Shown in pieces: positions 22,449 to 41,460 of a stretch of DNA of 64,000 bases (its first letter is position 1; every line of letters starts with the position of its first letter). A model generated the notes under the pieces. It was not told the DNA's origin and ran no database searches. It saw nothing but the letters and a program-made list of their open reading frames with translations. The translations under genes and the position numbers were made by a program. This DNA is from Minisyncoccota bacterium (GTDB taxonomy: Bacteria > Patescibacteriota > Minisyncoccia > Phycocordibacterales > Phycocordibacteraceae), in NCBI GenBank assembly GCA_022842945.1, contig JALHOO010000001.1, positions 93,830 to 157,829 on the forward strand. The letters are read 5' to 3'.

Positions 22449-25400
22449 ATGGCACTACCTAACATGAATTCCGGAAAGCGTCCGATGATGTCTAAGAGTC
22501 GCGATTGGGACGCACTCCGTCTCTCTCTCGCCTCGCCTGAGCGTATCCTCTCTTGGAGCCGTGGCGAGATTACGAAGCCTGAGACCATCAACTACCGTAC
22601 CCAGCGCTCTGAGAAGCACGGGCTCTTCGACGAGAAGATCTTCGGTCCTGAGCGTGACTACGAGTGTTACTGCGGCAAGTACAAGGGTATTCGCTACAAG
22701 GGCATCGTCTGTGACAAGTGTGGTGTGGAAATCACCCGCTCTATCGTGCGCCGTGAGCGCATGGGACACATCGAGCTCGTAACCCCGGTTGCGCACATCT
22801 GGTTCCTTCGCTCGATGCCAAGCCGTATGGCACTTATTCTCGGTATCCCATCTGCGGACCTCGAGAAGGTGGTCTACTTCGCGGGCTACATCGTTACGAA
22901 AGTAAACGAGGACGTGAAGAAGCGCATGCTTGCGGAGCTTGAGAACGAGTACAAGACCAAGCACAAGGCATCAAACACTGACACTGAGCGCGATGCGCTT
23001 AAGGAGAAGATGACTGTTGCGAAGAATGAGATTGAGTCTGTGGTTGTCGGCAAGGTGTTCGACGAGATCATGTACCACCGCTTCTCGGTGCGCTACGGAA
23101 CACTCTTTGAGGCAAAGATTGGTGCAGAGGCTATTTACGACCTCTTCCGCAACTTGAAGCTCGACGACCTCAAGGTAAAGCTCGAAGAGCGCTACCCGAA
23201 GGCTGCCGCTGCTGAGCGCGAGAAGCTCGCAAAGCGCATCTCACTTGTTACCGCTATGATCGCGGCGAATATCCGCCCTGAGTGGATGTTCCTCACGAAG
23301 ATCCCGGTTATCCCGCCAGCGCTCCGCCCTATGGTGGCGCTTGAGGGAGGACGTCATGCGACCTCGGATGTTAACGACCTCTATCGTCGCGTTATCAACC
23401 GCAACAACCGCTTGAAGAAGCTCCTCGATATTCACGCACCGGAGGTTATCCTCCGCAACGAGAAGCGCATTCTTCAGGAGGCTGTGGACGCTCTCATGGA
23501 CAACTCTATCCGCAAGGGTGGAGCAGCCGGAGGCGCGATGACCCCTGCACAGCGTCGTCCACTCAAGTCACTCGCTGACTACCTTAAGGGTAAGCAGGGA
23601 TACTTCCGCCAGAACCTTCTTGGAAAGCGCGTGGACTACTCAGGACGTTCCGTTATTGTGGTCGGTCCTGACCTCGAGCTCGACGAGTGTGGTCTTCCAA
23701 AGCACATGGCGCTTGAGCTTTTCCGCCCATTCGTTATCGCAGGACTCCTTGATCGCGAACTCGCGTTCAACATCCGCGGAGCAGGCCGCCTCATTGAGGA
23801 CGGTGTTGCTGAAGTCTGGGAGATTCTTGAAGAAGCTATCCAGGGCAAGCACGTACTCCTTAACCGCGCCCCTACGCTTCACCGCCAGGGTATCCAGGCA
23901 TTCCGCCCGCGTCTTATTGAGGGCGACGCTATCCAGCTTCACCCACTCGTGTGTCCTGCGTTCAACGCAGACTTCGACGGAGACCAGATGGCTATCCACG
24001 TACCGCTTTCAGAAGAGGCACAGTGGGAGGCAGCGAACGTTATGTCCGCGAACAAGAACATTCTGAAGCCAGGTTCTGGAGAAATGATTGTCATGACCCA
24101 GAAGCCGCTCGACATCGTTCTTGGAACCTACTGGCTTACAAAGATGATGGCAGGTTCAAAGGGAGAGGGAAGCTACTTCCAGTCTCCAAACGCTGCTATC
24201 CTCGCACACGAGTATGGTGCGGTTGATCTTCGCGCATCTATCCACGTGCTTCCGGTTGCCGGAAAGCCGAAGTACGCAGTTATGGGTGACGGTATCTTCG
24301 AGACAACCGTGGGACGCCTTCTCTTTAACACCGTTCTTCCTGCGGACTATCCGTATGTGAACGAGGCTATCTCGAAGAAGGTTATTACGGGCATCATGAG
24401 CGCGTGTATCGACAAGTACGGTATCGACTCTATCCCAGGCATCGTGAACAAGGTGAAGCGTTTCGGATTCGAGTACGCAACCAAGTCTGGTGTTACCTGG
24501 TCTCTGGACGACGTGTCGGTGCCTGAGGGCAAGGACCCAATTGTGGCAGGAGCTCGCACCAAGGTTGCTAAGATTGAAGGCGACTTCAAGGATGGTCTTC
24601 TCTCTGCGGAAGAGAAGCGCCGCATGATCATCGAGGTCTGGCACGCAGCTAAGACTGAGGTTGAAACGCTCGTTGAGGCTGCGCTTGATCCAACCGGATC
24701 GGTGCATGACATGGTGCGCTCTGGCGCTCGTGGTTCCATCGGAAACCTCACGCAGATGGCAGGTATGAAGGGTCTCATCCAGAACACTGCCGGCGAGACT
24801 ATCGAGGTGCCTATCGTGTCCTCGATGACGGAGGGACTCAACCCGGTTGAGTACTTCATGTCCACCCACGGTGCGCGTAAGGGTCTCACCGACACCGCGC
24901 TTGGTACCGCACGTGCCGGATACCTCACACGTCGCTTGTTCGACGTTGCGCAGGACTCCATCATCACGGAGCAGGATTGTGCAACGAAGCGTGGCATCAC
25001 CATCAACCGTGTGTCCGCTTCCGGCATTAAGATCGACTTCGGAGAAGCAGTTCGTGGACGCACACTCGCTGCAGACGTTGCGGGCCTCAAGAAGGGCAAG
25101 TACATCTCAGCAGAAGAGTCACAGCTTATTGCTAGCGACGAGACTATCGCATCTGTATCGGTTCGTTCACCTATGTCCTGCGAGACCCGCTACGGCATCT
25201 GTGCAACCTGTTACGGTATGGATCTCTCAAGCCAGCTCCCGGTTGATCTTGGAGAGGCGGTAGGAACCGTTGCTGCACAGGCTATCGGCGAGCCGGGAAC
25301 TCAGCTCACGATGCGTACCTTCCACGCGGGAGGAACGGCCTCTGTTGGAGGAGACATTACCTCGGGTCTTCCTCGTATTGAGGAGGTGTTCGAGAAGCGT

Positions 25401-26171
25401 TCTCCGAAGAACTCAGCAGCCGTATCGAAGTTCGATGGCGTTATTGTTGAGATGCGTGACCAGGGACGCGACAAGGTACTGGTCGTTACTCCCGAGAAGG
25501 GACAGGGCAAGAAGGACGGCTCGAACACCGAGTACCTCCTCTCCTACCCTCGCCAGGCACTTGTTAAGGAAGGGGACTCTGTTAAGAAGGGCCAGCTCCT
25601 TTCTGACGGATCCGCTGACCTTGATGAGCTCTTCGAGCACGCAGGTCGCGCGATGGTACAGGAGTACATCATTGCGGAGACTTCGAAGATCTACGAGCTT
25701 CAGGGAGCGAGCGTATCCCGCAAGCACCTTGAGGTTATCGTGAAGCGAATGTTTGCTAACGCGAAGATCACGGAGACCGGAGACTCAGACTACTCAGTGG
25801 GCGACGTGGTTGAACACTGGGAGTTCGAGGAAGAGGTGAAGGCTATGGAGGAGGAAGGAAAGATCGCGCCGAAGGCGAAGGAAATGGTACTCGGTATCAA
25901 GACCTCCGCACTCTCACGTCGTTCGTTCCTCTCCGCAGCGTCCTTCGAGCAGACCACAAAGATTCTTATCGACGCATCGCTCCGCGGTTCCGTTGATACG
26001 CTTCGCGGTCTTAAGGAGAACGTTATCCTCGGCCGCCTTATCCCCGCGGGAACAGGCTTCGCAGGATCGAAGAAGTTCGAGGCAATTGCTGCCATGCAGG
26101 CACGTCGCGCTGTTGAACAGCAGCGTGCTGAAGCAGAGCGTCTTGCGCTTGAGGAGCAGGCAACTGCGTAA
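22449..26171 (+). CDS. rpoC: DNA-directed RNA polymerase beta' subunit
   Basis: Zn finger CGKYKGIRYKGIVCDKCG and catalytic NADFDGDQMAIH motif; 1240 aa. Confidence 0.97.
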   Translation: MALPNMNSGKRPMMSKSRDWDALRLSLASPERILSWSRGEITKPETINYRTQRSEKHGLFDEKIFGPERDYECYCGKYKGIRYKGIVCDKCGVEITRSIVRRERMGHIELVTPVAHIWFLRSMPSRMALILGIPSADLEKVVYFAGYIVTKVNEDVKKRMLAELENEYKTKHKASNTDTERDALKEKMTVAKNEIESVVVGKVFDEIMYHRFSVRYGTLFEAKIGAEAIYDLFRNLKLDDLKVKLEERYPKAAAAEREKLAKRISLVTAMIAANIRPEWMFLTKIPVIPPALRPMVALEGGRHATSDVNDLYRRVINRNNRLKKLLDIHAPEVILRNEKRILQEAVDALMDNSIRKGGAAGGAMTPAQRRPLKSLADYLKGKQGYFRQNLLGKRVDYSGRSVIVVGPDLELDECGLPKHMALELFRPFVIAGLLDRELAFNIRGAGRLIEDGVAEVWEILEEAIQGKHVLLNRAPTLHRQGIQAFRPRLIEGDAIQLHPLVCPAFNADFDGDQMAIHVPLSEEAQWEAANVMSANKNILKPGSGEMIVMTQKPLDIVLGTYWLTKMMAGSKGEGSYFQSPNAAILAHEYGAVDLRASIHVLPVAGKPKYAVMGDGIFETTVGRLLFNTVLPADYPYVNEAISKKVITGIMSACIDKYGIDSIPGIVNKVKRFGFEYATKSGVTWSLDDVSVPEGKDPIVAGARTKVAKIEGDFKDGLLSAEEKRRMIIEVWHAAKTEVETLVEAALDPTGSVHDMVRSGARGSIGNLTQMAGMKGLIQNTAGETIEVPIVSSMTEGLNPVEYFMSTHGARKGLTDTALGTARAGYLTRRLFDVAQDSIITEQDCATKRGITINRVSASGIKIDFGEAVRGRTLAADVAGLKKGKYISAEESQLIASDETIASVSVRSPMSCETRYGICATCYGMDLSSQLPVDLGEAVGTVAAQAIGEPGTQLTMRTFHAGGTASVGGDITSGLPRIEEVFEKRSPKNSAAVSKFDGVIVEMRDQGRDKVLVVTPEKGQGKKDGSNTEYLLSYPRQALVKEGDSVKKGQLLSDGSADLDELFEHAGRAMVQEYIIAETSKIYELQGASVSRKHLEVIVKRMFANAKITETGDSDYSVGDVVEHWEFEEEVKAMEEEGKIAPKAKEMVLGIKTSALSRRSFLSAASFEQTTKILIDASLRGSVDTLRGLKENVILGRLIPAGTGFAGSKKFEAIAAMQARRAVEQQRAEAERLALEEQATA

Positions 26172-26187
26172 CCAAAGCGTTTTAGAG

Positions 26188-26226
26188 AAAACACAGCCCG
26201 CTCGAAAGAGCGGGCTGTGTTTGTAT
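26188..26226 (+). terminator. rpoC intrinsic terminator
   Basis: Perfect 13-bp stem ACACAGCCCGCTC / GAGCGGGCTGTGT with a GAAA tetraloop, followed by TTTGTAT. Confidence 0.65.
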
Positions 26227-26235
26227 ATGAAGAAA

Positions 26236-26264
26236 CCCCGCAAGAAGACGGGGCTTCCTGCGGG
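26236..26264 (-). terminator. terminator / conserved inverted repeat after paralog A
   Basis: CCCCGCAAGAAG...CTTCCTGCGGGG hairpin with a minus-strand T-rich tail TTTCTTCATA. Confidence 0.5.
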
Positions 26265-26281
26265 GCCTAGTGTCTGGGGTA

Positions 26282-26677
26282 TTACCCGGGCGGTTTCGGA
26301 AAGTTCCTGGCGATAGCCTCCATTCGTTTTTGTTTCTCGATGTCGCGCCTGAAGTAGTCGACCCAGTTGAGGTACGCGATGCGTGTGCATCGGTCCTCAA
26401 CTGTTTCGGCCCAGGCTTCCAGGGAAGCGACCTTCTGAACGTACTCAGGACTCAGTCGGTTCTCGCTGCCGAAGAAGCTCAGAGGCAGAGAGCGGGCCGC
26501 CGCCGAACTGAGTGCATCTGAATCCGGACAGGTGAACGAGGTCAGTGCATTGAAGGTCGTGCGCGGTGCGTATCCCAGTGACAAGCCACTTCCGGCAATT
26601 ACAAGCATAATCAGAGAACCGACCCCAACCATAAGGCAAGAGGTGTTGATGATAAAGGAACGTAAACCGTTCTTCAT
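26282..26677 (-). CDS. secreted/membrane-anchored hypothetical protein, paralog A (131 aa)
   Basis: N-terminal TM/signal anchor. Conserved LTSFTCPDxDAxSS and ASLEAW..EDRCxR motifs, each with a conserved Cys. AAGGAGG ribosome-binding site. Confidence 0.6.
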   Translation of the reverse strand: MKNGLRSFIINTSCLMVGVGSLIMLVIAGSGLSLGYAPRTTFNALTSFTCPDSDALSSAAARSLPLSFFGSENRLSPEYVQKVASLEAWAETVEDRCTRIAYLNWVDYFRRDIEKQKRMEAIARNFPKPPG

Positions 26678-26805
26678 TGTCGAGGCCCCTCCTTAGGGCG
26701 ATTGAATGATTCCTTTAAAATAATGCACCGAATGCCTGTATTTGTCAATACCTATCGGTCGCGACTACGCTTCTGAGGCAGGTGGCGTGTTCGTACGTGA
26801 CGAAG

Positions 26806-26834
26806 CCCCGCAGGAAGCGAGGCTTCCTGCGGGG
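26806..26834 (-). repeat. near-identical inverted repeat after paralog B (no T-tract)
   Basis: CCCCGCAGGAAGC-GAG-GCTTCCTGCGGGG, a perfect 13-bp stem. Confidence 0.4.
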
Positions 26835-26850
26835 CGAGAGTCCTGTATGG

Positions 26851-27222
26851 CTAGTACGGCGCTCGGGGAGCTGTTTCGGTAAGAACGTTCACACGTTCCT
26901 GTCGGTCGGCTCCTCTGCTGTAGCGGTAGATCTCGGCAAGGTGAGCGGTACGCGCACACCGATCCTCGATAGATGAGGTCCATGCCTCTAAAGAGGCGAG
27001 CCTCTGTCTTCGTTCCTCAGCCGGTAGATACTTGATTGCGTAGAACGGTCGTTGCGCTATCGAGCTATGTGCGTCGTAGTTCGGACAGGTAAACGAGGTC
27101 AGGTGATTCAGAGATTCGCGGGGTGTGTGTCCCATGAGTGCGTGGGCTCCGAAGAACCCGCTCAGCATCAGCAGGAACGCCGCGAAGACATAATCCGAGA
27201 TCAAGAAAACAACTTTCTTCAC
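26851..27222 (-). CDS. secreted/membrane-anchored hypothetical protein, paralog B (123 aa, GTG start)
   Basis: About 40% identical to paralog A across the mature region, with the same two Cys. GAAGGAGG ribosome-binding site; upstream TTGACG + GTGCATTGTCTTTAAGG matches the paralog A promoter architecture. Confidence 0.6.
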   Translation of the reverse strand: MKKVVFLISDYVFAAFLLMLSGFFGAHALMGHTPRESLNHLTSFTCPNYDAHSSIAQRPFYAIKYLPAEERRQRLASLEAWTSSIEDRCARTAHLAEIYRYSRGADRQERVNVLTETAPRAPY

Positions 27223-27300
27223 GGCAGCAGCCCCTCCTTCGGGCGGTTTGGTGGTTCCTTAAAGACAATGCACCCAACTCTTTTTGTCGTCAATAAATGG

Positions 27301-27329
27301 GTAAACAAAAGACCGCGTTCTGCGGTCTT
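27301..27329 (-). terminator. terminator of the small membrane protein gene
   Basis: AAGACCGC-GTTC-TGCGGTCTT followed on the minus strand by TTGTTT. Confidence 0.45.
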
Positions 27330-27337
27330 AAGTTGGA

Positions 27338-27526
27338 TTAGCGATGTGCTGTTTCTTTCTTACGTGCTGTCACGAAGATAGAGAGCAGCACAAGCGCCGC
27401 GAGGATCGAGAGAAAGATATACCCTCGAGCCTCTTTCCACGAGATGTTGTTGTGGAGGAAGTCGAGAGTGTTTCCAAGAAACACAGCGACCGTAACCGCA
27501 ACAGCAATAATAAAGAGCGCACGCAT
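27338..27526 (-). CDS. small membrane protein (62 aa, 2 TM)
   Basis: MRALFIIAVAVTVAVFLG...ILAALVLLSIFV; has its own terminator. Confidence 0.4.
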   Translation of the reverse strand: MRALFIIAVAVTVAVFLGNTLDFLHNNISWKEARGYIFLSILAALVLLSIFVTARKKETAHR

Positions 27527-27607
27527 AGGAAATCCCTTTCTAATGGAGGTGACGTTTCTCTTTCCATATAACCGCGGGCAGGGGAGGAGCGTCAAAGAGT
27601 GCGTGTG

Positions 27608-27657
27608 CATAAGAAAACACCACCCAGAGGACCTAGGTGGGTCTTCTTGGGTGGTGT
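27608..27657 (-). terminator. terminator of the 58-aa membrane protein gene
   Basis: 10-bp stem ACACCACCCA/TGGGTGGTGT followed by TTTCTTATG on the minus strand. Confidence 0.45.
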
Positions 27658-27662
27658 TGTGG

Positions 27663-27839
27663 TCAGCGCTTTCTCCACGGCTGAATCAGGGTGAGGACGC
27701 AGATCACGCCTGCACCTGCGCCCAAAACGCTGGACTGGAATGCGGTGTCCCAGTTCTGGTCTGTCAGGGCGATGATGCCGTAGCAGAGCAAGAAGGGAAT
27801 TCCTATGCCGCCAGCGATGTACAGCAGAGTCTTTAACAT
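27663..27839 (-). CDS. small membrane protein (58 aa, MLKTLLYIAGGIGIPFLLCYGIIALT...)
   Basis: ATG with GGAG 9 nt upstream, a sigma70-like promoter upstream and a terminator downstream. The overlapping 100-aa ORF in another frame looks non-coding. Confidence 0.4.
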   Translation of the reverse strand: MLKTLLYIAGGIGIPFLLCYGIIALTDQNWDTAFQSSVLGAGAGVICVLTLIQPWRKR

Positions 27840-27865
27840 GAAGTAGCTCCAGTTGATCTGTGTAT

Positions 27866-27894
27866 ATCATAGTATATATAATGAGTATTGTCAA
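27866..27894 (-). promoter_or_regulatory. sigma70-like promoter TTGACA-N17-TATGAT for the 58-aa gene, divergent from dnaG
   Basis: Read on the minus strand; a near-consensus -35/-10 pair with 17-nt spacing, about 20 nt upstream of the ATG. Confidence 0.4.
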
Positions 27895-27940
27895 TTAACC
27901 ATACATGATTCTAGATACGCGCTAAAATAGAGAGAAGCAC

Positions 27941-29644
27941 ATGGATACCGTTGAACAGATAAAGGCGAAGCTCTCTATCCTTGAGGTAGTAGCACCCTAC
28001 GTGAAGCTCACGAAGTCAGGTCGCAACTATAAGGGGCTCTCTCCCTTCAATAAGGAGAAGACCCCATCGTTCTACGTGAACGTTGAGCGCGGTACCTACT
28101 ACTGCTTCTCCTCAAGCCAAGGCGGAGACCAGTTCCAGTTCATACAGCAGATGGAGGGCGTGGATTTCAAGGGAGCGCTCAAGATCCTCGCTGAGAAAGC
28201 AGGGGTTGAGATTGTGTATCAAGGGAGTGGCGAGTCAAAAGCAGACAAGGACAAGCGAGATCGTTTGTACGAAGCTATGGCGCGTGCAGAGGCGCTCTAC
28301 GCAGAAGCGCTTCTGCAAGGAAAGGGTATAGAGGGAAGTGCGTACTCCTACGCACTCTCCCGCGGGCTCACAGAGGAAACCATAAAGACCTGGAACCTCG
28401 GCTACGCACCTGATGCATGGCGCACGGTACTTGAGTCTCTCATGTCTGCCGGCTTTACGAATGCAGAACTGGTCCAGGCTGGACTCGTTAAGGAAGCGGA
28501 CGAGAAGAAGGGCACCTGGTACGACCGGTTCCGGAACCGCCTCATGTTCCCGATACGCGATTCGGCCGGACGCACCGTTGCCTTTACGGGTCGCGCTCTA
28601 GACTCTGCGGATCTCGCGAAGTATCTCAACTCTCCAGAGACTGACCTGTACAAGAAGTCAGAGATTCTCTTTGGCATGGACAAGGCGAAGGATGCGATAC
28701 GTCAGAGAGGATTCGCACTTCTTGTTGAGGGACAGATGGATCTTTTGCATTTGCATCAGATAGGGTTCCAGAATACCGTTGCGCTCTCCGGTACTGCGCT
28801 TACGCCCCAGCACCTTTCCTTAATGAAGCGGTACGCAGACAACGTGATGCTTGCGCTCGACTCAGACCGTGCGGGCCTTAACGCATCTATGAAGAGCGCC
28901 ATAGCGGCTCTTCGGGCTGGCATGCGTGTGAAGGCAGTACACCTTCCGCCAGGGAAGGATCCGGCAGACCTCGCTCTTGAGGACCCCAAGGGTTTAACTA
29001 CTCGCATCAAGGACGCTACGCCTATCGTTGAGTTCTTCCTGTCGGTGCTCGCAGAGAACGAGAAGGACTCGCACCGTCTCGTTATCCTCGTTGAGAAGAC
29101 CGTCCTTCCGCTCATAAGTGCCATACAGAGCCCAATGGAGCAGGAGCATTTCGTAGGAGTTGCTGCACGTTCTCTTGGATCAACCCCCGAAGCTATCCGG
29201 GCTGGACTTAACCGCCTTCCAAAGGAAGGGCAGGCGGAGAGGGCTCCTGAGACACCCTTTAAGCCTCAAGTGCGGGTTGAGGTACCCCTTAAAGCCAGCG
29301 AGCGGCACGAGCTTAATTTGAGGGCTGTAGCGGCCTGTTATGCGGGCTCTTCCCTTGCGGCACGGCTTGAAAGTGAGTATAATCGCATTATCGGCGTACC
29401 GTTCCCGGATGTGCCCCCTCCCGAAGACATGATCTTCGAGGCAGGAATAGCTTTTGGCGAGGCCCCCGGAGAAACAGACGCGGACGATCTCATCGTCGCA
29501 TTCGAGAAGGCACTTTTAGCGGAGCAGCTCCAGGCTGCTACCGCTCGCTTGCGCGTTGCAGAGGCGTCCCGCGACGAGACCTCAATCAAAGAGATAGGAC
29601 AGGAGTGCGAAGAACTCCGCAAGAAACTCGCTACCTTTTCATAG
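27941..29644 (+). CDS. dnaG: DNA primase
   Basis: Zinc-ribbon region (CFSSSQGGD), TOPRIM domain (EGQMDLL...DSDRAG) and dnaG-rpoD synteny. Confidence 0.93.
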   Translation: MDTVEQIKAKLSILEVVAPYVKLTKSGRNYKGLSPFNKEKTPSFYVNVERGTYYCFSSSQGGDQFQFIQQMEGVDFKGALKILAEKAGVEIVYQGSGESKADKDKRDRLYEAMARAEALYAEALLQGKGIEGSAYSYALSRGLTEETIKTWNLGYAPDAWRTVLESLMSAGFTNAELVQAGLVKEADEKKGTWYDRFRNRLMFPIRDSAGRTVAFTGRALDSADLAKYLNSPETDLYKKSEILFGMDKAKDAIRQRGFALLVEGQMDLLHLHQIGFQNTVALSGTALTPQHLSLMKRYADNVMLALDSDRAGLNASMKSAIAALRAGMRVKAVHLPPGKDPADLALEDPKGLTTRIKDATPIVEFFLSVLAENEKDSHRLVILVEKTVLPLISAIQSPMEQEHFVGVAARSLGSTPEAIRAGLNRLPKEGQAERAPETPFKPQVRVEVPLKASERHELNLRAVAACYAGSSLAARLESEYNRIIGVPFPDVPPPEDMIFEAGIAFGEAPGETDADDLIVAFEKALLAEQLQAATARLRVAEASRDETSIKEIGQECEELRKKLATFS

Positions 29645-29659
29645 CATTCGATTACTCGT

Positions 29660-30961
29660 TTGAACTCTACTCACATGGCAACCTCAAAGAAGCCAGCCAA
29701 GAAGGCTGTTGTTAAAAAAGCAGTGAAGAAGGCCGCCCCAAAGAAGGTGGTTAAAAAGGCTGTGAAGAAAGTCGCAAAGAAAGCCGCACCTAAGAAGGTG
29801 GTGAAGAAAGTGGCTGCCGCTAAGAAGCCTGCAAAGAAGGTGCTTCTTAAGAACATTGTGCGTGTTGCGGCAACGGGTGCTAAGGCGAAAGCTGCTGCAC
29901 AGAAGATGGACAAGGGCGACATGCTCATCCAGAAGGGAAAGGAGCGCGGATACATCACCTACTCTGAGATCCTTAAGGAGTTCCCGCATGTTGAGGACGA
30001 CATCATGTTCCTCGACGAGCTCTACGAGAAGTTCACCACCGCAGGCATCGACATTCTTGAGGGGGGTATGCTCGCAGACGATACGGACCAGTACCTGGCC
30101 ACCCGCAACATAAAGAGTCGTGACTCTGGTGCATACGACTCCATCCAGATCTACCTTCGCGAGATTGGACAGTACCCGCTTCTAACAGCGTCTGAAGAGC
30201 GCGAGCTCGCCCAGCGCATTGAGCGCGGGGACGACGAAGCGCGCAACATTCTTGCTCGCTCGAACCTTCGTCTCGTTGTGTCTATTGCAAAGAAGTACGT
30301 AGGACGCTCTCCGGACCTAACCCTCCTCGACCTTATCCAGGAAGGAAACCTTGGTCTCTTCAAGGCCGTAGACAAGTTCGACTGGAACAAGGGATTTAAG
30401 TTCTCAACCTACGCTACGTGGTGGATTCGCCAGGCTATAACCCGCGCGCTCGCAGACCAGTCTCGTACCATCCGCATCCCGGTGCACATGGTTGAAACTA
30501 TCGCGAAGTACAAGCAGGTATCCCGCCGCCTCGCTCAGGTGCTCGGACGCGATCCGCAGCCTGAGGAGATAGCTATTGAGATGGGTGTGGAGGTAGACAA
30601 GATCTACCAGATTGAGAAGATCAATCAGGACACGCTCTCTCTTGAGAATCCTATTGGTTCCGATGACGACCAGAACTCAACGCTCGGCGACTTCATCGCG
30701 GACGACAAGATTCCTTCTCCAATCCAGGAGTCTTCGGAGCGTATTCTTGGAGAGCAGGTGCGCGACATTCTTGAAGACCTCTCTCCAAAGGAGCGCAAGA
30801 TTCTTGAGATGCGCCATGGACTCCTAGACGGTGTGTACCACACGCTTGAAGAGGTTGGGAAGGAGTTTGGGGTTACGCGTGAGCGTATCCGCCAGATTGA
30901 GGCGAAGGCGCTTGAGAAGATCAGGACGCATGAGAAGAGTAGGAGGTTGAAGTCCTATTAA
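29660..30961 (+). CDS. rpoD: RNA polymerase sigma-70 factor with a Lys/Ala-rich (histone H1-like) N-terminal repeat region
   Basis: Regions 1.2-4.2 are present (rpoD box [13 protein letters not shown]). The first ~75 aa are [11 protein letters not shown] repeats. Confidence 0.93.
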
Positions 30962-30962
30962 A

Positions 30963-31436
30963 ATGACAGAGAAGGCAAAGAGTACAAAAGAGCTGGAGAA
31001 GACCGTTGATGACGGTGCTTCGATAACCAGTGATTTGCCTGCCGATAAGACAGTTAATAGGTCTAGCTTTTCAAGTTGGAGTCGTGCGATACCGCCTGCA
31101 GAGCTAAAAAAGCCGGACGTAGCTCGTGCGATAGCGAAGATGCTTCTCATGCTCAATGATGACCTTCAACGTGATCTTGAGAAGGCCCATCCATTTGAGG
31201 CTAAATTCTATGAGGCCGATAAGCGTACAGAAGTGCTCAAGGAGAGAATACGTGGCCTGCAAAAATCGGTCGGTGTAAAGGTACTATTCTCCTCTGCGGG
31301 CTTTGGCCTCGTGGGCTTTTCACCGTTCCTTTGGGACAAATATGTTCCACTATTTATACTGGCCATAGCTTTAGGAATCGTACTCATTGTCGTCGGTTAC
31401 TTCATAAAGGATATAAGTGACAAATTCGAAAAGTAA
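30963..31436 (+). CDS. hypothetical protein with C-terminal double TM helix (157 aa)
   Basis: Soluble charged N-terminal region, then VLFSSAGFGLVGFSPFLW...LFILAIALGIVLIVVGYFI. Confidence 0.5.
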   Translation: MTEKAKSTKELEKTVDDGASITSDLPADKTVNRSSFSSWSRAIPPAELKKPDVARAIAKMLLMLNDDLQRDLEKAHPFEAKFYEADKRTEVLKERIRGLQKSVGVKVLFSSAGFGLVGFSPFLWDKYVPLFILAIALGIVLIVVGYFIKDISDKFEK

Positions 31437-31440
31437 ATCT

Positions 31441-31824
31441 ATGCAGATTGAAATTAAGAAAATTGTAGATAGAGATCTCCTGGAGCAAGAAAGAGCAGTT
31501 CTTGGTGTAGTTTCTGATACTTTCTTAGGAAATTTTGCGATATTCCAAACTCACTCAAACTCATCCGGAACTGTATCAACACAGATAAAAAGAACATATT
31601 GGTTTCCAGATCGGGATGTGAAGGCTGGCGATATAATTGTTATTTATACTAAGTCTGGGAAGAATAAAGTGCGTGACAATGACGATGGTACTCAGTCACA
31701 TTTCTTCTATCTTGGAAAGGATGCGCCAATTTGGAAAGACGATTCCTCAGCACTGGCAATAATTAATATCCTTGAGTGGGACTATAAAACGGCTGATGGA
31801 AAAGGAGGGAGAGAAAAGATTTAG
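31441..31824 (+). CDS. hypothetical protein (127 aa)
   Basis: ATG 4 nt after the upstream stop; low-GC codon usage shared with the island. An alternative GTG start lies at 31417. Confidence 0.45.
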   Translation: MQIEIKKIVDRDLLEQERAVLGVVSDTFLGNFAIFQTHSNSSGTVSTQIKRTYWFPDRDVKAGDIIVIYTKSGKNKVRDNDDGTQSHFFYLGKDAPIWKDDSSALAIINILEWDYKTADGKGGREKI

Positions 31825-31964
31825 ACCACATGGGCTATTTTTAGATTGGTATAAGAAACTTGTTAGTCACCCTTAAATAAGGTGGTCGATCACGCCTGCA
31901 TGGACCTTGCGATCTAACTGAGCAAAATCTAAGCCTTAAATACTGTATATATTCTTACAGTCGG

Positions 31965-31985
31965 GAAGTGGGGTAGAATACTGTG
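31965..31985 (+). promoter_or_regulatory. extended -10-like element (TGgggTAGAAT) upstream of the MmeI-family gene
   Basis: AT-rich 200-nt gap; TGnTAGAAT about 45 nt upstream of the ATG at 32031. Confidence 0.3.
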
Positions 31986-32030
31986 ACAAAGACTTAGTAG
32001 GAATGCTGCCAAAAAGACCCCAAGAAATTT

Positions 32031-34709
32031 ATGATCAATCTAGTAAGCCTACAGGAGGATCTTGAGAATCTCAGTCAGAAATTTTCAAAGCAAACGTTTG
32101 TCTTTGATTTGCTGTCCGTGTATGGACTGCCGAAAAGCACCATCTCTTTACTTTTCAAAAACCCCTCAAAGCTATCGGGAAAGGAAGATCAGATCATTTT
32201 AAAAAACAAGGTGCTTTTTCACATAACCAACTTAGAAGAAGACGAGCACGTCGCTATCGATACTCTACAAAAGGATAAGAACTCATATAAATTCAATCCT
32301 CGATTCATTATCGTTACGGACTTTGCAACATTCTTGGCTGTAGATACAAAAACAAAGGAGACTCTTGATATCCAGATTGGGGATCTCGGCAGACATTACG
32401 CATTTTTCTTGCCGTGGTGTGGCATGGAAAAATCACAGCATGTTAATGAGAACCCTGCTGATATTCGTGCTGCCTACAAAATGGACAAGTTGTATCAGGC
32501 AATTGTTAATGACGATCCAGAATACTATAAGAACAATAGTCACGATTTAAACATATTTCTATCACGGCTTCTTTTCTGTTTCTTCGCCGAAGATACCGGA
32601 ATCTTCCCGAAAGCAGGATTATTCACAAACTCAGTAATTTCTCATACTCATGAAAATGGTGAAGAGTTAGATGCACATTTCTCAACGCTGTTTGATCTGT
32701 TGAACACAAAAGATAGCGACCGGTCAAAGTTTGCATCTCACTTTTTGGAATTCCCATATGTAAATGGGGGTCTTTTTGAAGACAAGATTAAGTTACCTGC
32801 ATTTACTGCTAGTTCACGAAAACTGATTATTGAGTGTGGAAAATTGAATTGGGATTCAATCAATCCTGACATCTTCGGGTCTATGATCCAGGCTGTCGTT
32901 CATCCTGGACAGCGAGAGAATCTCGGAATGCACTACACCTCTGTGCCTAACATAATGAAGGTGATTGAACCGCTCTTTCTTAATGATTTGTACGAAGAAT
33001 TAGAAAGGTCGAAAAATGATCCAAAGAAATTAGAAAATCTTCGTGACAGAGTTTCCAAGATCAAGATATTTGATCCAGCCTGTGGATCAGGTAATTTCCT
33101 CATTATCTCGTACAAGGAGTTATCAAAACTAGAATCAAAAATAGTTGCTTACGCCAAAGCCATTGGGCATGACATGGTGCAGTACTCTGGTGTATCTCTA
33201 AACTCTTTCTACGGAATAGAGATAGATGACTTTGCTCATGAAATTGCCAGACTTTCACTTTGGCTAGCTCAACACCAAATGAACCAGTATTTCGATGGAA
33301 TGTTTGGAATTATGAAAGCAACACTCCCGCTTAAAGAAAGCGGAAAGATTGTTTGTGGTAATGCCACGAGAGTCGATTGGGAGGAGGTCTGTCCTCGTAA
33401 AGATAAGGTTGTAGGAGAACATGAAATATATGTAATTGGTAATCCTCCTTACTACGGGGCAAGAAAGCAAGATGACGAACAGAAAGAAGATATCAATAGA
33501 ATTTTTAAGGGGGTCAAGAATGCGAGCAATCTGGATTATATTTCCTGCTGGTTTCTTCTTGGCAAGAACTATATTCAAGGCACAAAGATCAAGCTGGCTT
33601 TTGTTTCAACAAATTCAATTTGCCAGGGCGAGCAGGTCTCTATTCTATGGCCACTAATTTTAAAAGACCAAATCGAAATAGGTTTCGCGTACCAGTCATT
33701 TAAATGGAAGAACAGTGCCAAGGGTAATGCCGGAGTCACTTGCGTTATTGTTGGATTAAGAGCTGAAGCAAAAAATCATAAATATATTTTTAGTGGTCAA
33801 ATTAAGATTTCAGCCAAAAATATATCACCGTATCTTGTAGATACTGATAATCTTTTTGTGCAAAAAAGAAGTAAACCGCTATCACAGATTCCAGAGATGT
33901 GCTTTGGAAGTATGCCTAATGATGGTGGATATCTTTTGATTGACCAGAATGAGTATGTAGAACTTAAAAGTAATAATCCTACTGTTCTTAGTTTTATAAA
34001 ACGATGCTACGGTGGCCAGGAATTTATCAAGGGAATTGTCAGGTATTGTATTTGGATCAGTGATAAAGAAGTTGACAGTGCTATGAAGATTGAATTTATT
34101 AAAAATAGAGTCGAGCTAGTTCAATCATATCGAAGTAAGAGTGACAGGGAAGCAACTAGAAAATTGTCTGCAAAGCCTTACAAATTTGGTGAGATTAGAC
34201 ACCTTGATACCAATTCAATCATTGTTCCTCGAGTTTCGTCCGAATTGCGTGATTACATTCCTGTAGGTTTTCTGACCAAGAACGATATCATCACTGATTC
34301 TGCCCAGGTTATATATAACGCCGAGCCTTATATTTTTGCTGTACTAAATTCACACATGCACATGACCTGGGTGCGTGCTGTTGGAGGAAAATTGAAGACT
34401 GACTTGAGGTACTCGTCCGCACTTTGTTACAACACCTTCCCATTTCCAGAGATTACCCCAAAGCAAAAGGACTCGCTTGCTACTCATGTCTATAATATTC
34501 TCGAAGAGCGCGAGAAATATCCCAATAAAACGATGGCAGACCTGTATGATCCAGTAAAGATGCCGGATAGCTTGAGGGAAGCTCATAAATATTTAGACCT
34601 CGCCATAGACCAAATATATCGAAACAAACCCTTTGAAAGTGATGAAGATCGGTTGGCTCATTTGTTCAAATTCTACGAAGAGATGATTACTAGAGAAACC
34701 AACGGATAA
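32031..34709 (+). CDS. MmeI-family (Type IIL / ISP-like) N6-adenine DNA methyltransferase with C-terminal target-recognition domain and an N-terminal nuclease-like domain of uncertain activity
   Basis: Motif I FDPACGSGNFLI and motif IV NPPY (VIGNPPYYG). MmeI-family signatures RLLFCFFAEDTGIF, FPYVNGGLF, HYTSVPNIMKVIEPLF, FVSTNSICQGEQVSILWPLIL, RYSSALCYNTFPF and the ADLYDP..MP..L..AH..LD C-terminal helix. Confidence 0.85.
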   Translation: MINLVSLQEDLENLSQKFSKQTFVFDLLSVYGLPKSTISLLFKNPSKLSGKEDQIILKNKVLFHITNLEEDEHVAIDTLQKDKNSYKFNPRFIIVTDFATFLAVDTKTKETLDIQIGDLGRHYAFFLPWCGMEKSQHVNENPADIRAAYKMDKLYQAIVNDDPEYYKNNSHDLNIFLSRLLFCFFAEDTGIFPKAGLFTNSVISHTHENGEELDAHFSTLFDLLNTKDSDRSKFASHFLEFPYVNGGLFEDKIKLPAFTASSRKLIIECGKLNWDSINPDIFGSMIQAVVHPGQRENLGMHYTSVPNIMKVIEPLFLNDLYEELERSKNDPKKLENLRDRVSKIKIFDPACGSGNFLIISYKELSKLESKIVAYAKAIGHDMVQYSGVSLNSFYGIEIDDFAHEIARLSLWLAQHQMNQYFDGMFGIMKATLPLKESGKIVCGNATRVDWEEVCPRKDKVVGEHEIYVIGNPPYYGARKQDDEQKEDINRIFKGVKNASNLDYISCWFLLGKNYIQGTKIKLAFVSTNSICQGEQVSILWPLILKDQIEIGFAYQSFKWKNSAKGNAGVTCVIVGLRAEAKNHKYIFSGQIKISAKNISPYLVDTDNLFVQKRSKPLSQIPEMCFGSMPNDGGYLLIDQNEYVELKSNNPTVLSFIKRCYGGQEFIKGIVRYCIWISDKEVDSAMKIEFIKNRVELVQSYRSKSDREATRKLSAKPYKFGEIRHLDTNSIIVPRVSSELRDYIPVGFLTKNDIITDSAQVIYNAEPYIFAVLNSHMHMTWVRAVGGKLKTDLRYSSALCYNTFPFPEITPKQKDSLATHVYNILEEREKYPNKTMADLYDPVKMPDSLREAHKYLDLAIDQIYRNKPFESDEDRLAHLFKFYEEMITRETNG

Positions 34710-41209: not shown

Positions 41210-41460
41210 TTATATAAAGTTCGTCCGCAACCTTGGGTCGCGGACGAGGTATGGTGGTTACGTTTGCGGTGGGTTATTCGATGGGCCCCCGGTCCAAAGG
41301 GGCAAAAGTGCCCGACCTCATCGTCTCGCGATCACGAAAGCAGTATGCGCGCATCTGATCCTCTGCTTCTCCTGCGAGACCATCCTTTCCGTTTCACCTT
41401 CCAACCCGGTATCCGGCTTCTCCTGTTACGGGACCTTCCTGCGGGACAGGAGTAGTATAC

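What the first reader, a model, noticed from the sequence alone, without database searches (positions are those of the whole stretch)
26236..27300. Tandem paralogous secreted two-Cys proteins with a duplicated promoter, RBS and terminator module downstream of rpoC
The two minus-strand genes (131 and 123 aa) share an N-terminal signal anchor and the motifs LTSFTCP[DN]xDAxSS and ASLEAW…EDRC[TA]R, with two invariant Cys.

The regulatory context is duplicated as well. Each gene is preceded by TTGAC[AG]-N-GTGCATT[AG]T[CT]TT[TA]AAGG and an (A)AGGAGG ribosome-binding site. Each is followed by the same ~13-bp-stem inverted repeat CCCCGCA[AG]GAAG…CTTCCTGCGGGG.

This looks like a recent local duplication of an unknown-function surface or secreted protein family.
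Basis: seen in the sequence. Interest (0 to 1): 0.55.

Follow-up and report, generated by a model that had tools for sequence, protein, structure and literature searches.

The report
Paired envelope-protein cassettes beside rpoC
Two old copies of a very rare, unnamed small cell-surface protein gene, each with its own on and off signals, sit in a fast-changing gap between two essential genes of an ultra-small (CPR) bacterium; their only distant relatives lie in virus-like DNA, and their function is unknown.

Summary
Genes A (26851-27222, 123 aa) and B (26282-26677, 131 aa) on the minus strand are 38% identical (E 5e-25). Each has a TTGAC-N17-CATTRT promoter-like site, a conserved leader with an AAGGAGG ribosome-binding site, and a 12-14 bp GC-rich hairpin. 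These motifs occur nowhere else in the window.

The "recent duplication" reading fails. dS between A and B is about 1.4, and A-only, B-only and third-type (lipoprotein) versions occur in sister species. The flanks are 59-83% identical while synonymous sites are only 22-37% identical, which points to selection on the regulatory signals.

The host is a Paceibacteria/Kaiserbacteria-like CPR bacterium. rpoC-dnaG-rpoD order is conserved, but the rpoC-dnaG gap is a variable islet (about 90 bp to 6 kb).

The protein family has no Pfam, NCBIfam, PHROG or PADLOC match. About 20 members turned up in searches of roughly 15 billion proteins. The predicted ectodomain is three helices (pLDDT 89) with no structural neighbour. 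It carries two conserved Cys, a W-A-x2-[LI]-x-D-x-C-x-R-x-A-Y-L-x-W-x-D motif and a C-terminal PxPP.

Every distant member with readable context sits in phage- or prophage-like accessory regions, and most have lipoboxes.

Best guess, at low confidence: membrane-tethered, moron-like accessory envelope proteins that may act in phage exclusion.

The parts
26282..26677 (-). Gene B, 131 aa. It has an N-terminal hydrophobic helix (residues about 8-34; signal anchor or long signal peptide) and a three-helix ectodomain with C50 and C97, the motif WAETVEDRCTRIAYLNWVDYF and the C-terminal FPKPPG.
   Evidence: ORF. The identical protein is in NCBI and Logan. An orthologue at 66% identity gives dN/dS 0.48 overall and 0.32 for the ectodomain. 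AlphaFold2 gives pLDDT 81.8 for the full length and 89.3 for the ectodomain.
26851..27222 (-). Gene A, 123 aa, GTG start. It is a paralogue of B, with C46 and C89. Its N-terminal signal carries a conserved G(A/T)HA motif, a possible signal peptidase I site.
   Evidence: ORF. BLASTP against B gives E 5e-25. Three orthologues are 73-86% identical, with dN/dS 0.14-0.30 overall and 0.08-0.25 for the ectodomain.
26720..26748 (-). Promoter-like site of B: TTGACA, 17 nt, CATTAT, with TG directly upstream of the second hexamer.
   Evidence: Consensus scan, 10 of 12 matches. It is conserved in the cassettes of L003, L091 and L094.
27265..27293 (-). Promoter-like site of A: TTGACG, 17 nt, CATTGT.
   Evidence: It aligns with the B promoter in repeat D1 and was read from the sequence. 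It is conserved in the A cassettes of L091 and L092, whose upstream regions are 88-94% identical.
26678..26719 (-). Conserved leader of B, AGGAATCATTCAATCGCCCTAAGGAGGGGC, including the ribosome-binding site AAGGAGG (26688-26694).
   Evidence: No significant RNA fold (z -0.86).
27223..27264 (-). Conserved leader of A, AGGAACCACCAAACCGCCCGAAGGAGGGGC, including the ribosome-binding site AAGGAGG (27233-27239).
   Evidence: No significant RNA fold (z +1.24).
26234..26267 (-). Hairpin after B, a terminator candidate: a 12-15 bp stem and 6-nt loop followed by UUUCUUCAU.
   Evidence: Inverted repeat I9. Fold energy -24.6 kcal/mol, z -4.88.
26805..26835 (-). Hairpin after A, a terminator candidate that separates the two units: a 14-bp perfect stem and 3-nt loop followed by CUUCGUCAC.
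   Evidence: Inverted repeat I3. Fold energy -35.1 kcal/mol, z -5.73. Two of 14 pairs show compensatory changes among 7 homologous cassettes, and L094 shows a third.
26189..26222 (.). 15-bp perfect inverted repeat between the ends of rpoC and B. It is probably a two-way terminator shared by the convergent genes.
   Evidence: Inverted repeat I2. Part of it is listed as terminator-like on the + strand. It is conserved in L003, L091 and L094.
27338..27526 (-). Islet neighbour: a 62-aa protein with two membrane helices, with its own promoter-like region and a terminator-like hairpin (27309-27329).
   Evidence: The exact protein is in NCBI and Logan. Orthologues in L091 and L092 are 63% and 39% identical.
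27663..27839 (-). Islet neighbour: a 58-aa protein with two membrane helices, with a promoter-like site (TTGACA-17-TATGAT, 27866-27894) and a terminator-like hairpin (27620-27640).
   Evidence: The genes at the same position in L091 and L092 are only 25-34% identical.
22449..26171 (+). rpoC, the left boundary of the islet, convergent with genes A and B.
   Evidence: ORF of 1240 aa. Its C-terminal part is 72-94% identical to the matching region at 80 Patescibacteria loci.
27941..29644 (+). dnaG, the right boundary of the islet, followed by rpoD (29660-30961).
   Evidence: ORFs. tblastn shows the same gene order in relatives. Pfam DnaG domains are recorded for the L094 orthologue.

Best explanation
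Shown:
- A and B are two long-diverged paralogues of a very rare, unnamed protein family.
- Each lies in a self-contained unit: a sigma-70-type promoter, a conserved leader with a strong ribosome-binding site, the ORF, and a stable GC-rich hairpin.
- The units sit in an islet between rpoC and dnaG of a Paceibacteria/Kaiserbacteria-like CPR bacterium, and the islet's gene content differs between sister species.
- Both genes are under purifying selection.

Inferred from sequence and model:
- The N-terminal hydrophobic segment exports the protein. In relatives this segment is a lipobox signal.
- A ~90-residue three-helix domain then stays tethered on, or is released at, the outer face of the cell membrane.
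- The two conserved Cys probably form one internal disulfide that pins the N-terminal TCP segment to the start of the long last helix.
- The conserved W/R/Y/W face of that helix and the C-terminal PxPP tail are the likely contact surface for a partner.

Inferred from context (the weakest step): the family is a moron-like accessory envelope factor that moves between phages or prophages and chromosomes. In this bacterium it most probably binds an envelope component and so limits phage adsorption or DNA entry. That would resemble superinfection or entry exclusion by small tethered proteins such as Llp or Cor.

Confidence is about 0.9 for the anatomy and about 0.3 for the exclusion function. The figure entered refers to the function.
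For: - Paralogy and duplicated signals.
- Real genes under selection: dN/dS is 0.14-0.30 for A orthologues (0.08-0.25 for the ectodomain) and 0.48 for B (0.32 for the ectodomain).
- Signals under selection: between cassette types the flanks are 59-83% identical while synonymous sites are 22-37% identical. The hairpin stem shows compensatory changes.
- Variable islet:
  - rpoC-dnaG-rpoD order holds wherever the contig reaches past rpoC, at 73 of 80 loci.
  - The gap ranges from about 90 bp to 6 kb, and L006 (RpoC 90% identical) has no gene there.
  - Sister species carry A+B, A plus a B-like pseudogene, A plus an unrelated 57-aa membrane protein, B next to a different membrane protein (short fragment), or a lipoprotein type alone.
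- Export and tethering: AlphaFold2 predicts helix 2-33 followed by the three-helix domain. Lipobox-type signals are present in L094, P0006, P0008, L089, L090 and P0014.
- Cysteine pair present in 14 of 14 members.
- Phage link. All eight distant members whose surroundings could be read lie in phage-like DNA:
  - Two are IMG/VR viral contigs.
  - The neighbours include DNA methyltransferases, transposases, a helicase and DUF1064.
  - P0008 lies in an element with integrase, excisionase-type HTH_17, T5orf172 and recombination genes.
  - P0014 lies beside an HTH_17 gene.
- Analogy: Llp and Cor are small phage lipoproteins with one internal disulfide that mediate superinfection exclusion (PMC9586334).
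Against: - No sequence or fold similarity to any known exclusion or defence protein.
  - PADLOC gives none.
  - The PHROG Cor and Rz hits are at noise level, E 0.07-0.09 in one member each.
  - Foldseek against PDB and BFVD gives best E 0.28-1.7.
  - The PDB sequence profile finds nothing.
- Pairwise dN/dS is below 1 everywhere. A is under fairly tight constraint, which is not what an arms-race gene usually shows.
- There is no prophage around the window copies, and the local GC content matches the genome.
- The hosts of the phage-like contigs are unknown, and their lipoboxes suggest envelopes unlike that of a CPR cell.
- No expression or phenotype data exist.
- The disulfide is inferred only from conservation. 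The model coordinates could not be inspected.
Confidence: 0.3

Rival explanations
1. A lineage-specific envelope helper with no role in phage biology. The tethered helical domain would assist assembly or stability of a cell-surface structure (wall, S-layer or pili), or contact with the host cell on which the CPR bacterium lives. The paralogues would serve different partners.
For: - The genes are chromosomal with native GC content.
- The promoter and ribosome-binding site are strong and conserved.
- Selection is purifying, especially on A.
- A is inherited vertically, with dS similar to dnaG: 0.71 against 0.55.
Against: - The family is absent from close relatives, including L006 and all 80 GTDB loci.
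- Gain, loss and pseudogenisation occur within one genus.
- All distant relatives with readable context sit in phage-like accessory regions.
Confidence: 0.25
2. A secreted small protein (toxin or signal) paired with small membrane immunity proteins. A and B would be released after signal cleavage, and the neighbouring 58-62 aa two-helix proteins would protect the producer, as in bacteriocin loci.
For: - The islet mixes exported disulfide proteins with fast-evolving two-helix mini-proteins, each separately transcribed.
- A has a conserved AxA-type cleavage motif.
- Gene content differs from strain to strain.
Against: - In L094 the family member stands alone between dnaG and rpoC, with no membrane partner.
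- Many members are lipoproteins and so stay anchored.
- No leader-cleaving exporter gene lies inside the islet or is called in the related loci.
- The mature size of about 95 aa and the helical fold match no known bacteriocin class (own knowledge).
Confidence: 0.1
3. A remnant of a phage lysis module. A and B would be Rz-like spanin or antiholin-like proteins (N-terminal membrane helix, helical periplasmic domain with Cys), and the two-helix mini-proteins would be holin-like.
For: - The architecture resembles i-spanins and T4 RI (own knowledge of those families).
- The neighbours are 58-62 aa two-helix proteins with charged C-termini.
- One member gave a noise-level PHROG Rz-like hit, E 0.09.
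Against: - No lysin-type product is called beside any member, and none of the neighbours tested matched a lysis family.
- Every islet gene has its own promoter and hairpin rather than forming one late operon.
- The phage homologues lie among methyltransferase, recombination and integrase genes, not in lysis cassettes.
- Purifying selection and conserved expression signals argue against a decaying remnant.
- CPR cells are not known to have an outer membrane for spanins to act on (own knowledge).
Confidence: 0.07
4. Chance ORFs or a non-coding repeat: the similarity would reflect a duplicated intergenic or RNA element rather than proteins.
For: - The proteins are short and no database family matches them.
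- The flanks are as well conserved as parts of the ORFs.
Against: - dN/dS is well below 1 in the ectodomain.
- The reading frames are intact in 8 cassettes from 6 contigs.
- A profile built from the two paralogues and the B orthologue recovers distant proteins with the same motif and the same cysteines.
- The AlphaFold2 model is confident.
- No Rfam family reaches its threshold.
Confidence: 0.02

Closest known systems
Llp (phage T5) and Cor (T1, phi80, N15) superinfection-exclusion lipoproteins
   Same: - Small proteins carried by mobile elements.
- Tethered to a membrane by a lipid anchor; most distant members and the L094 type have lipoboxes.
- One conserved cysteine pair. Llp has a Cys11-Cys58 disulfide (PMC9586334).
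- Encoded as accessory genes.
   Different: - No detectable sequence similarity; the only PHROG Cor hit is E 0.07 in one member.
- The mature domain is larger (about 90-150 aa against about 60) and predicted all-helical.
- The window copies use a hydrophobic helix instead of a lipobox.
- The host is a CPR bacterium, which has no known outer-membrane receptor of the FhuA type.
- The function is untested.
Phage morons (for example lambda bor and lom, or the HK97 morons)
   Same: - A single gene carrying its own promoter and terminator.
- Inserted between genes that are adjacent in relatives (rpoC and dnaG adjoin in L006).
- Variable presence.
- The products are envelope proteins.
   Different: - The insertion is in a bacterial chromosome between housekeeping genes, not inside a prophage.
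- GC content is not deviant.
- The units are duplicated in tandem and have been kept for a long time.
Rz-type i-spanins and the T4 antiholin RI
   Same: - An N-terminal membrane helix followed by a helical periplasmic domain of about 100 aa with conserved cysteines.
   Different: - Not in lysis cassettes.
- No partner o-spanin, holin or endolysin was found.
- No significant profile hit.
- The lipobox variants lack the C-terminal membrane helix of unimolecular spanins. Only P0012 has an extra C-terminal helix.
Intrinsic (factor-independent) terminators
   Same: - A stable GC-rich stem of 12-15 bp directly after the stop codon, with stem pairing kept by compensatory changes.
   Different: - The U-tract is short and interrupted, especially after A (CUUCGUCAC).
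- The consensus scan did not list either hairpin.
- Termination has not been shown.

Membership tests
Any curated protein family (Pfam-A, NCBIfam, PHROGs, PADLOC) | A profile-HMM match above the curated or a significant threshold. | tested here: not met
   - Pfam and NCBIfam give only sub-threshold hits to the hydrophobic segment.
- The best PHROG E-value is 0.03.
- PADLOC gives none.
Llp/Cor superinfection-exclusion lipoproteins | Sequence similarity to Llp or Cor. | tested here: not met
   PHROG Cor (phrog_1119) matched one of 11 members at E 0.071. The PDB profile search did not return Llp, and Foldseek against PDB did not return it either.
Llp/Cor superinfection-exclusion lipoproteins | Lipoprotein signal (lipobox Cys). 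| tested here: inconclusive
   Present in the L094 type (LVAC) and in P0006, P0008, L089, L090 and P0014. Absent from the window genes A and B, which have a plain hydrophobic helix.
Llp/Cor superinfection-exclusion lipoproteins | One internal disulfide. | not testable with these tools
   The cysteine pair is conserved in 14 of 14 members.
Llp/Cor superinfection-exclusion lipoproteins | Blocks a phage receptor or DNA entry. | not testable with these tools
   This needs a phage-host system.
Phage moron | A gene flanked by its own promoter and terminator. | tested here: met
   Promoter-like sites and stable hairpins flank each ORF and are conserved across 8 cassettes. Activity has not been shown.
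Phage moron | Inserted between genes that are adjacent in related genomes. | tested here: met
   rpoC and dnaG are about 100 bp apart in L006 and many other loci. The window has a 1.77-kb insert there.
Phage moron | Located within a phage or prophage genome. | tested here: not met
   The window copies lie between rpoC and dnaG with no phage genes beside them. Only the distant homologues are in phage-like contigs.
Rz-type i-spanin | Lies in a lysis cassette with an o-spanin, holin and endolysin. | tested here: not met
   No such neighbours were found in the window, in related loci, or around the phage-borne homologues examined.
Rz-type i-spanin | An N-terminal membrane helix plus a periplasmic coiled-coil with Cys. 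| tested here: inconclusive
   The membrane helix and a helical Cys-containing ectodomain are present. The model is a compact three-helix unit, and most homologues are lipoproteins instead.
Intrinsic terminator | A GC-rich stem-loop followed by a U-run. | tested here: inconclusive
   The stems are strong. The U-run is 5 of 8 after B and 3 of 8 after A, and the scan did not list them.

The most novel reading that the evidence does not exclude
The cassettes would be phage-derived envelope exclusion determinants domesticated by a CPR bacterium. The rpoC-dnaG gap would act as a dedicated swap site, where the conserved promoter/leader and hairpin frames let alleles of surface-protection genes (types A, B and the lipoprotein type) be exchanged by homologous recombination between strains. 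That would be an envelope-level anti-phage locus in Patescibacteria, a group that carries few classical defence systems.
Probability: 0.15. Interest if true: 0.55.

Novelty: new member of a known kind. Interest (0 to 1): 0.3.

Why it matters
If the reading is right, this is an undescribed family of tethered two-Cys helical envelope proteins shared between phage-like elements and CPR chromosomes. It also marks a concrete, easily recognised variable site (the rpoC-dnaG gap) where ultra-small bacteria keep fast-turning surface genes.

CPR bacteria have small genomes and few known defences, and their phage biology is only beginning to be studied experimentally (PMC13578794, PMC12911398). Candidate surface-level protection genes are therefore useful leads.

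The family is extremely rare, about 20 members in roughly 15 billion proteins, and nothing here demonstrates a function. The practical value for now is a clean annotation and a testable hypothesis, not a discovery.

Tried and rejected
- Searches with A, B and profiles built from them returned no relative or no significant match:
  - GTDB representative genomes and JGI metagenome contigs, by peptide pattern.
  - GenBank phages and PLSDB plasmids, by tblastn.
  - PDB sequences, by profile.
  - Foldseek against PDB twice and BFVD once.
  - PADLOC.
  - PHROGs for the islet mini-proteins and for the secreted partner proteins in phage contigs.
- A relaxed DNA motif scan of IMG/VR gave only chance hits beyond the two true viral contigs.
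- The idea that the conserved leader forms a regulatory RNA structure is rejected for now. The fold z-scores are -0.86, +1.24 and -0.59, and no Rfam hit reached threshold. The Rfam hits at 26187-26270 are only the terminator hairpins.
- The idea that the hairpin belongs to a dispersed repeat family is rejected. It has no other copy in the window, only one near-match with a single mismatch at 41435.
- Pairwise dN/dS gave no evidence of positive selection.
- The comparisons labelled 'L094C' used a start that was off by one base and are void.
- Hosts of the phage-like contigs could not be assigned. The only tRNA found was one tRNA-His in L089.
Full report
**What is there**

On the minus strand, between the 3' end of rpoC (22449-26171, +) and the start of dnaG (27941-29644, +), lie four short genes:
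- a 58-aa ORF (27663-27839)
- a 62-aa ORF (27338-27526)
- gene A (26851-27222, GTG start, 123 aa)
- gene B (26282-26677, ATG start, 131 aa)

A and B align over 110 residues at 38% identity, E 5e-25.

An 81-nt upstream block is 72% identical between the two genes. It contains:
- TTGACA/TTGACG, a 17-nt spacer, then CATTAT/CATTGT (for B; read for A)
- a conserved leader
- the ribosome-binding site AAGGAGG, 7-10 nt before the start codon

Each stop codon is followed within about 15 nt by a GC-rich hairpin. The stems are 12-15 bp and 14 bp, with fold energies of -24.6 and -35.1 kcal/mol and z-scores of -4.9 and -5.7. The three motif classes occur in the window only at these two genes, against chance expectations of 0.03-0.31.

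**Organism and locus**

The C-terminal 499 residues of RpoC match 80 species-representative genomes at 72-94% identity. All are Patescibacteria MAGs, labelled Paceibacterota, Kaiserbacteria or Parcubacteria, with some mislabelled.

The order rpoC-dnaG-rpoD holds in every locus where the contig reaches that far. The rpoC-dnaG gap varies from about 90 bp to about 6 kb. L006 (RpoC 90% identical) has no gene there, and other lineages hold unrelated small ORFs, many of them hydrophobic. None of the 80 loci encodes a relative of A or B. GC content across the islet (0.49-0.58) is close to the genome's.

**Close relatives show rapid turnover at this site**

Exact and near matches come only from Logan assemblies and one NCBI record. 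The configurations seen, all antiparallel to rpoC and dnaG, are:
- Window, L001 and L002: 58 | 62 | A | B.
- L091: 138 aa | 61 | 62 | A (80% identical) | a B-position gene 38-44% identical to B, depending on the alignment, with an in-frame TAA at codon 11. DnaG is 98% identical to the window's, with dS 0.55.
- L092: 57 | 61 | A (86%) | an unrelated 57-aa membrane protein.
- L093, a fragment: A (73%) | a 98-aa membrane protein.
- L003 and L004, fragments: a 96-aa membrane protein | B (66%) | rpoC.
- L094 (RpoC 96.6%, DnaG 81%): a single gene, P0007.

The called start of P0007 lies inside the promoter. The GTG at L094:2815 gives MKNILVIGVVVLSLVAC, a lipoprotein signal. This third type is 28-34% identical to A and B. 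It nevertheless keeps the same promoter, leader and hairpin.

**Age of the duplication and selection**

| Comparison | dS | dN/dS |
|---|---|---|
| A vs B | 1.44 | 0.44 overall, 0.35 ectodomain |
| B vs its L003 orthologue | 0.51 | 0.48 overall, 0.32 ectodomain |
| A orthologue pairs | 0.58-1.08 | 0.14-0.30 overall, 0.08-0.25 ectodomain |
| dnaG, window vs L091 | 0.55 | 0.03 |

The duplication therefore predates the species splits sampled here, A is inherited vertically, and both genes are constrained, A more than B.

Between cassette types, synonymous sites are 22-37% identical, while the 80 nt upstream and 60 nt downstream are 59-83% identical. The expression signals therefore look maintained by selection and are not residue of a fresh copy. 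Gene conversion confined to the flanks is the alternative and was not tested.

In the hairpin, 98% of cells pair. Two of 14 pairs show compensatory double changes among seven cassettes, and L094 adds a third (CCCCGC/GCGGGG to CCCAGC/GCTGGG). The shuffle control is weak, with 72 of 500 shuffles reaching the observed value. The leader has no significant fold, and no Rfam family reaches threshold.

**The protein family**

No Pfam, NCBIfam, PHROG or PADLOC model matches. An exhaustive profile search of 1.84 billion cluster representatives found 11 proteins at E below 1e-3.

Aligned with the orthologues, 14 members share the following features:
- an N-terminal signal, which is a lipobox in six members
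- a first Cys near a (T)CP-D-x-DA...AL segment
- the motif W-A-x2-[LI]-x-D-x-C-x-R-x-A-Y-L-x-W-x-D-x-[YF]
- a helical stretch of variable length, rich in charged residues
- P-x-P-P within ten residues of the C-terminus

AlphaFold2 gives helix 2-33 plus a helical domain for full-length B (pLDDT 81.8). For the ectodomain it gives three helices, at B residues 53-63, 77-90 and 96-125 (pLDDT 89.3, pTM 0.74). Foldseek found nothing better than E 0.28 in BFVD or E 1.2 in the PDB.

**Context of the distant members**

Each distant member whose surroundings could be read lies in phage-like DNA:
- L085 and a Logan twin: runs of small overlapping ORFs, DNA methyltransferases, a helicase, RlaP and WDGH.
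- L086 and L087.
- L088: DUF1064 and HTH_3.
- L089 and L090: two IMG/VR viral contigs found with a degenerate motif, with transposases, methyltransferases and a radical-SAM protein nearby.
- L095 and L096: integrase, HTH_17, T5orf172, AAA_24, DUF3799, an SbcC-like ATPase and HNH.
- L097: beside an HTH_17 gene.

No lysis genes were seen next to any of them. Cultured phages and plasmids have no match.

**Interpretation**

The anatomy points to an exported domain that is tethered to the membrane or released at its outer face. The domain is probably stapled by one disulfide, and the gene is expressed as a stand-alone unit. These points are shown or directly inferred.

The variable chromosomal site, the moron-like gene structure and the phage-borne relatives make an accessory envelope role the best reading. 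Within that reading, exclusion of phage adsorption or DNA entry is the most specific hypothesis. It rests on analogy with small tethered disulfide proteins such as Llp and Cor (PMC9586334). I put it at about 0.3.

The rivals, in order of weight:
- An endogenous surface-assembly or attachment helper (0.25). The purifying selection on A and its vertical descent fit this well.
- A secreted protein with membrane immunity partners (0.1). L094 weakens this, because the gene stands alone there.
- A lysis-module remnant (0.07).
- Non-coding or chance ORFs (0.02).

**Verdict**

The feature is real and cleanly delimited.

This is a new, very rare protein family of a familiar general kind: small accessory envelope proteins in a variable islet. 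No function has been demonstrated. Interest is modest.

Noticed in passing
window 26172-27940; loci L005-L084: The rpoC-dnaG gap is a variable islet across Paceibacteria, ranging from about 90 bp to 6 kb. Its contents are unrelated between lineages and often consist of small hydrophobic ORFs on the strand opposite to rpoC and dnaG.
   Followed up: partly
window 27338-27526(-) and 27663-27839(-): Two mini-proteins with two membrane helices (62 and 58 aa), each with its own promoter-like site and terminator-like hairpin. The genes at the 58-aa position are only 25-34% identical between strains whose DnaG is 98% identical. They match no family.
   Followed up: partly
L091 3266-3643: The B-position gene of a sister strain has an in-frame TAA at codon 11, while its promoter, ribosome-binding site and hairpin are intact. 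It is either a pseudogene or a sequencing error.
   Followed up: partly
window 26695-26719 and 27240-27264; the same block in L003, L091, L092, L093 and L094: A leader block (AGGAAYCAYY.AA.CGCCC) between the -10 box and the ribosome-binding site is conserved in all three cassette types, although synonymous sites are saturated. It has no significant RNA fold. It could be an operator or a translational element.
   Followed up: partly
window 30963-34709: Downstream of rpoD there is a low-GC stretch (0.37-0.40 at 31200-32000, against about 0.55 elsewhere) with two ORFs that match no Pfam family. It is followed by a complete MmeI-type (type IIL) restriction-modification enzyme at 32031-34709.
   Followed up: partly
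L085 7534-8004 and L086 806-1396: In two phage-like contigs the family gene overlaps by 4 nt with a gene for another signal-peptide protein of 156 or 196 aa. This suggests translational coupling with a secreted partner. The partner proteins match no family.
   Followed up: partly
L094 2770-3216: The public gene call for P0007 starts inside the promoter. The likely true start is the GTG at 2815, which makes the product a 133-aa lipoprotein precursor with an LVAC lipobox.
   Followed up: yes
window 1-64000: ARAGORN found no tRNA gene in the whole 64-kb window.
   Followed up: no
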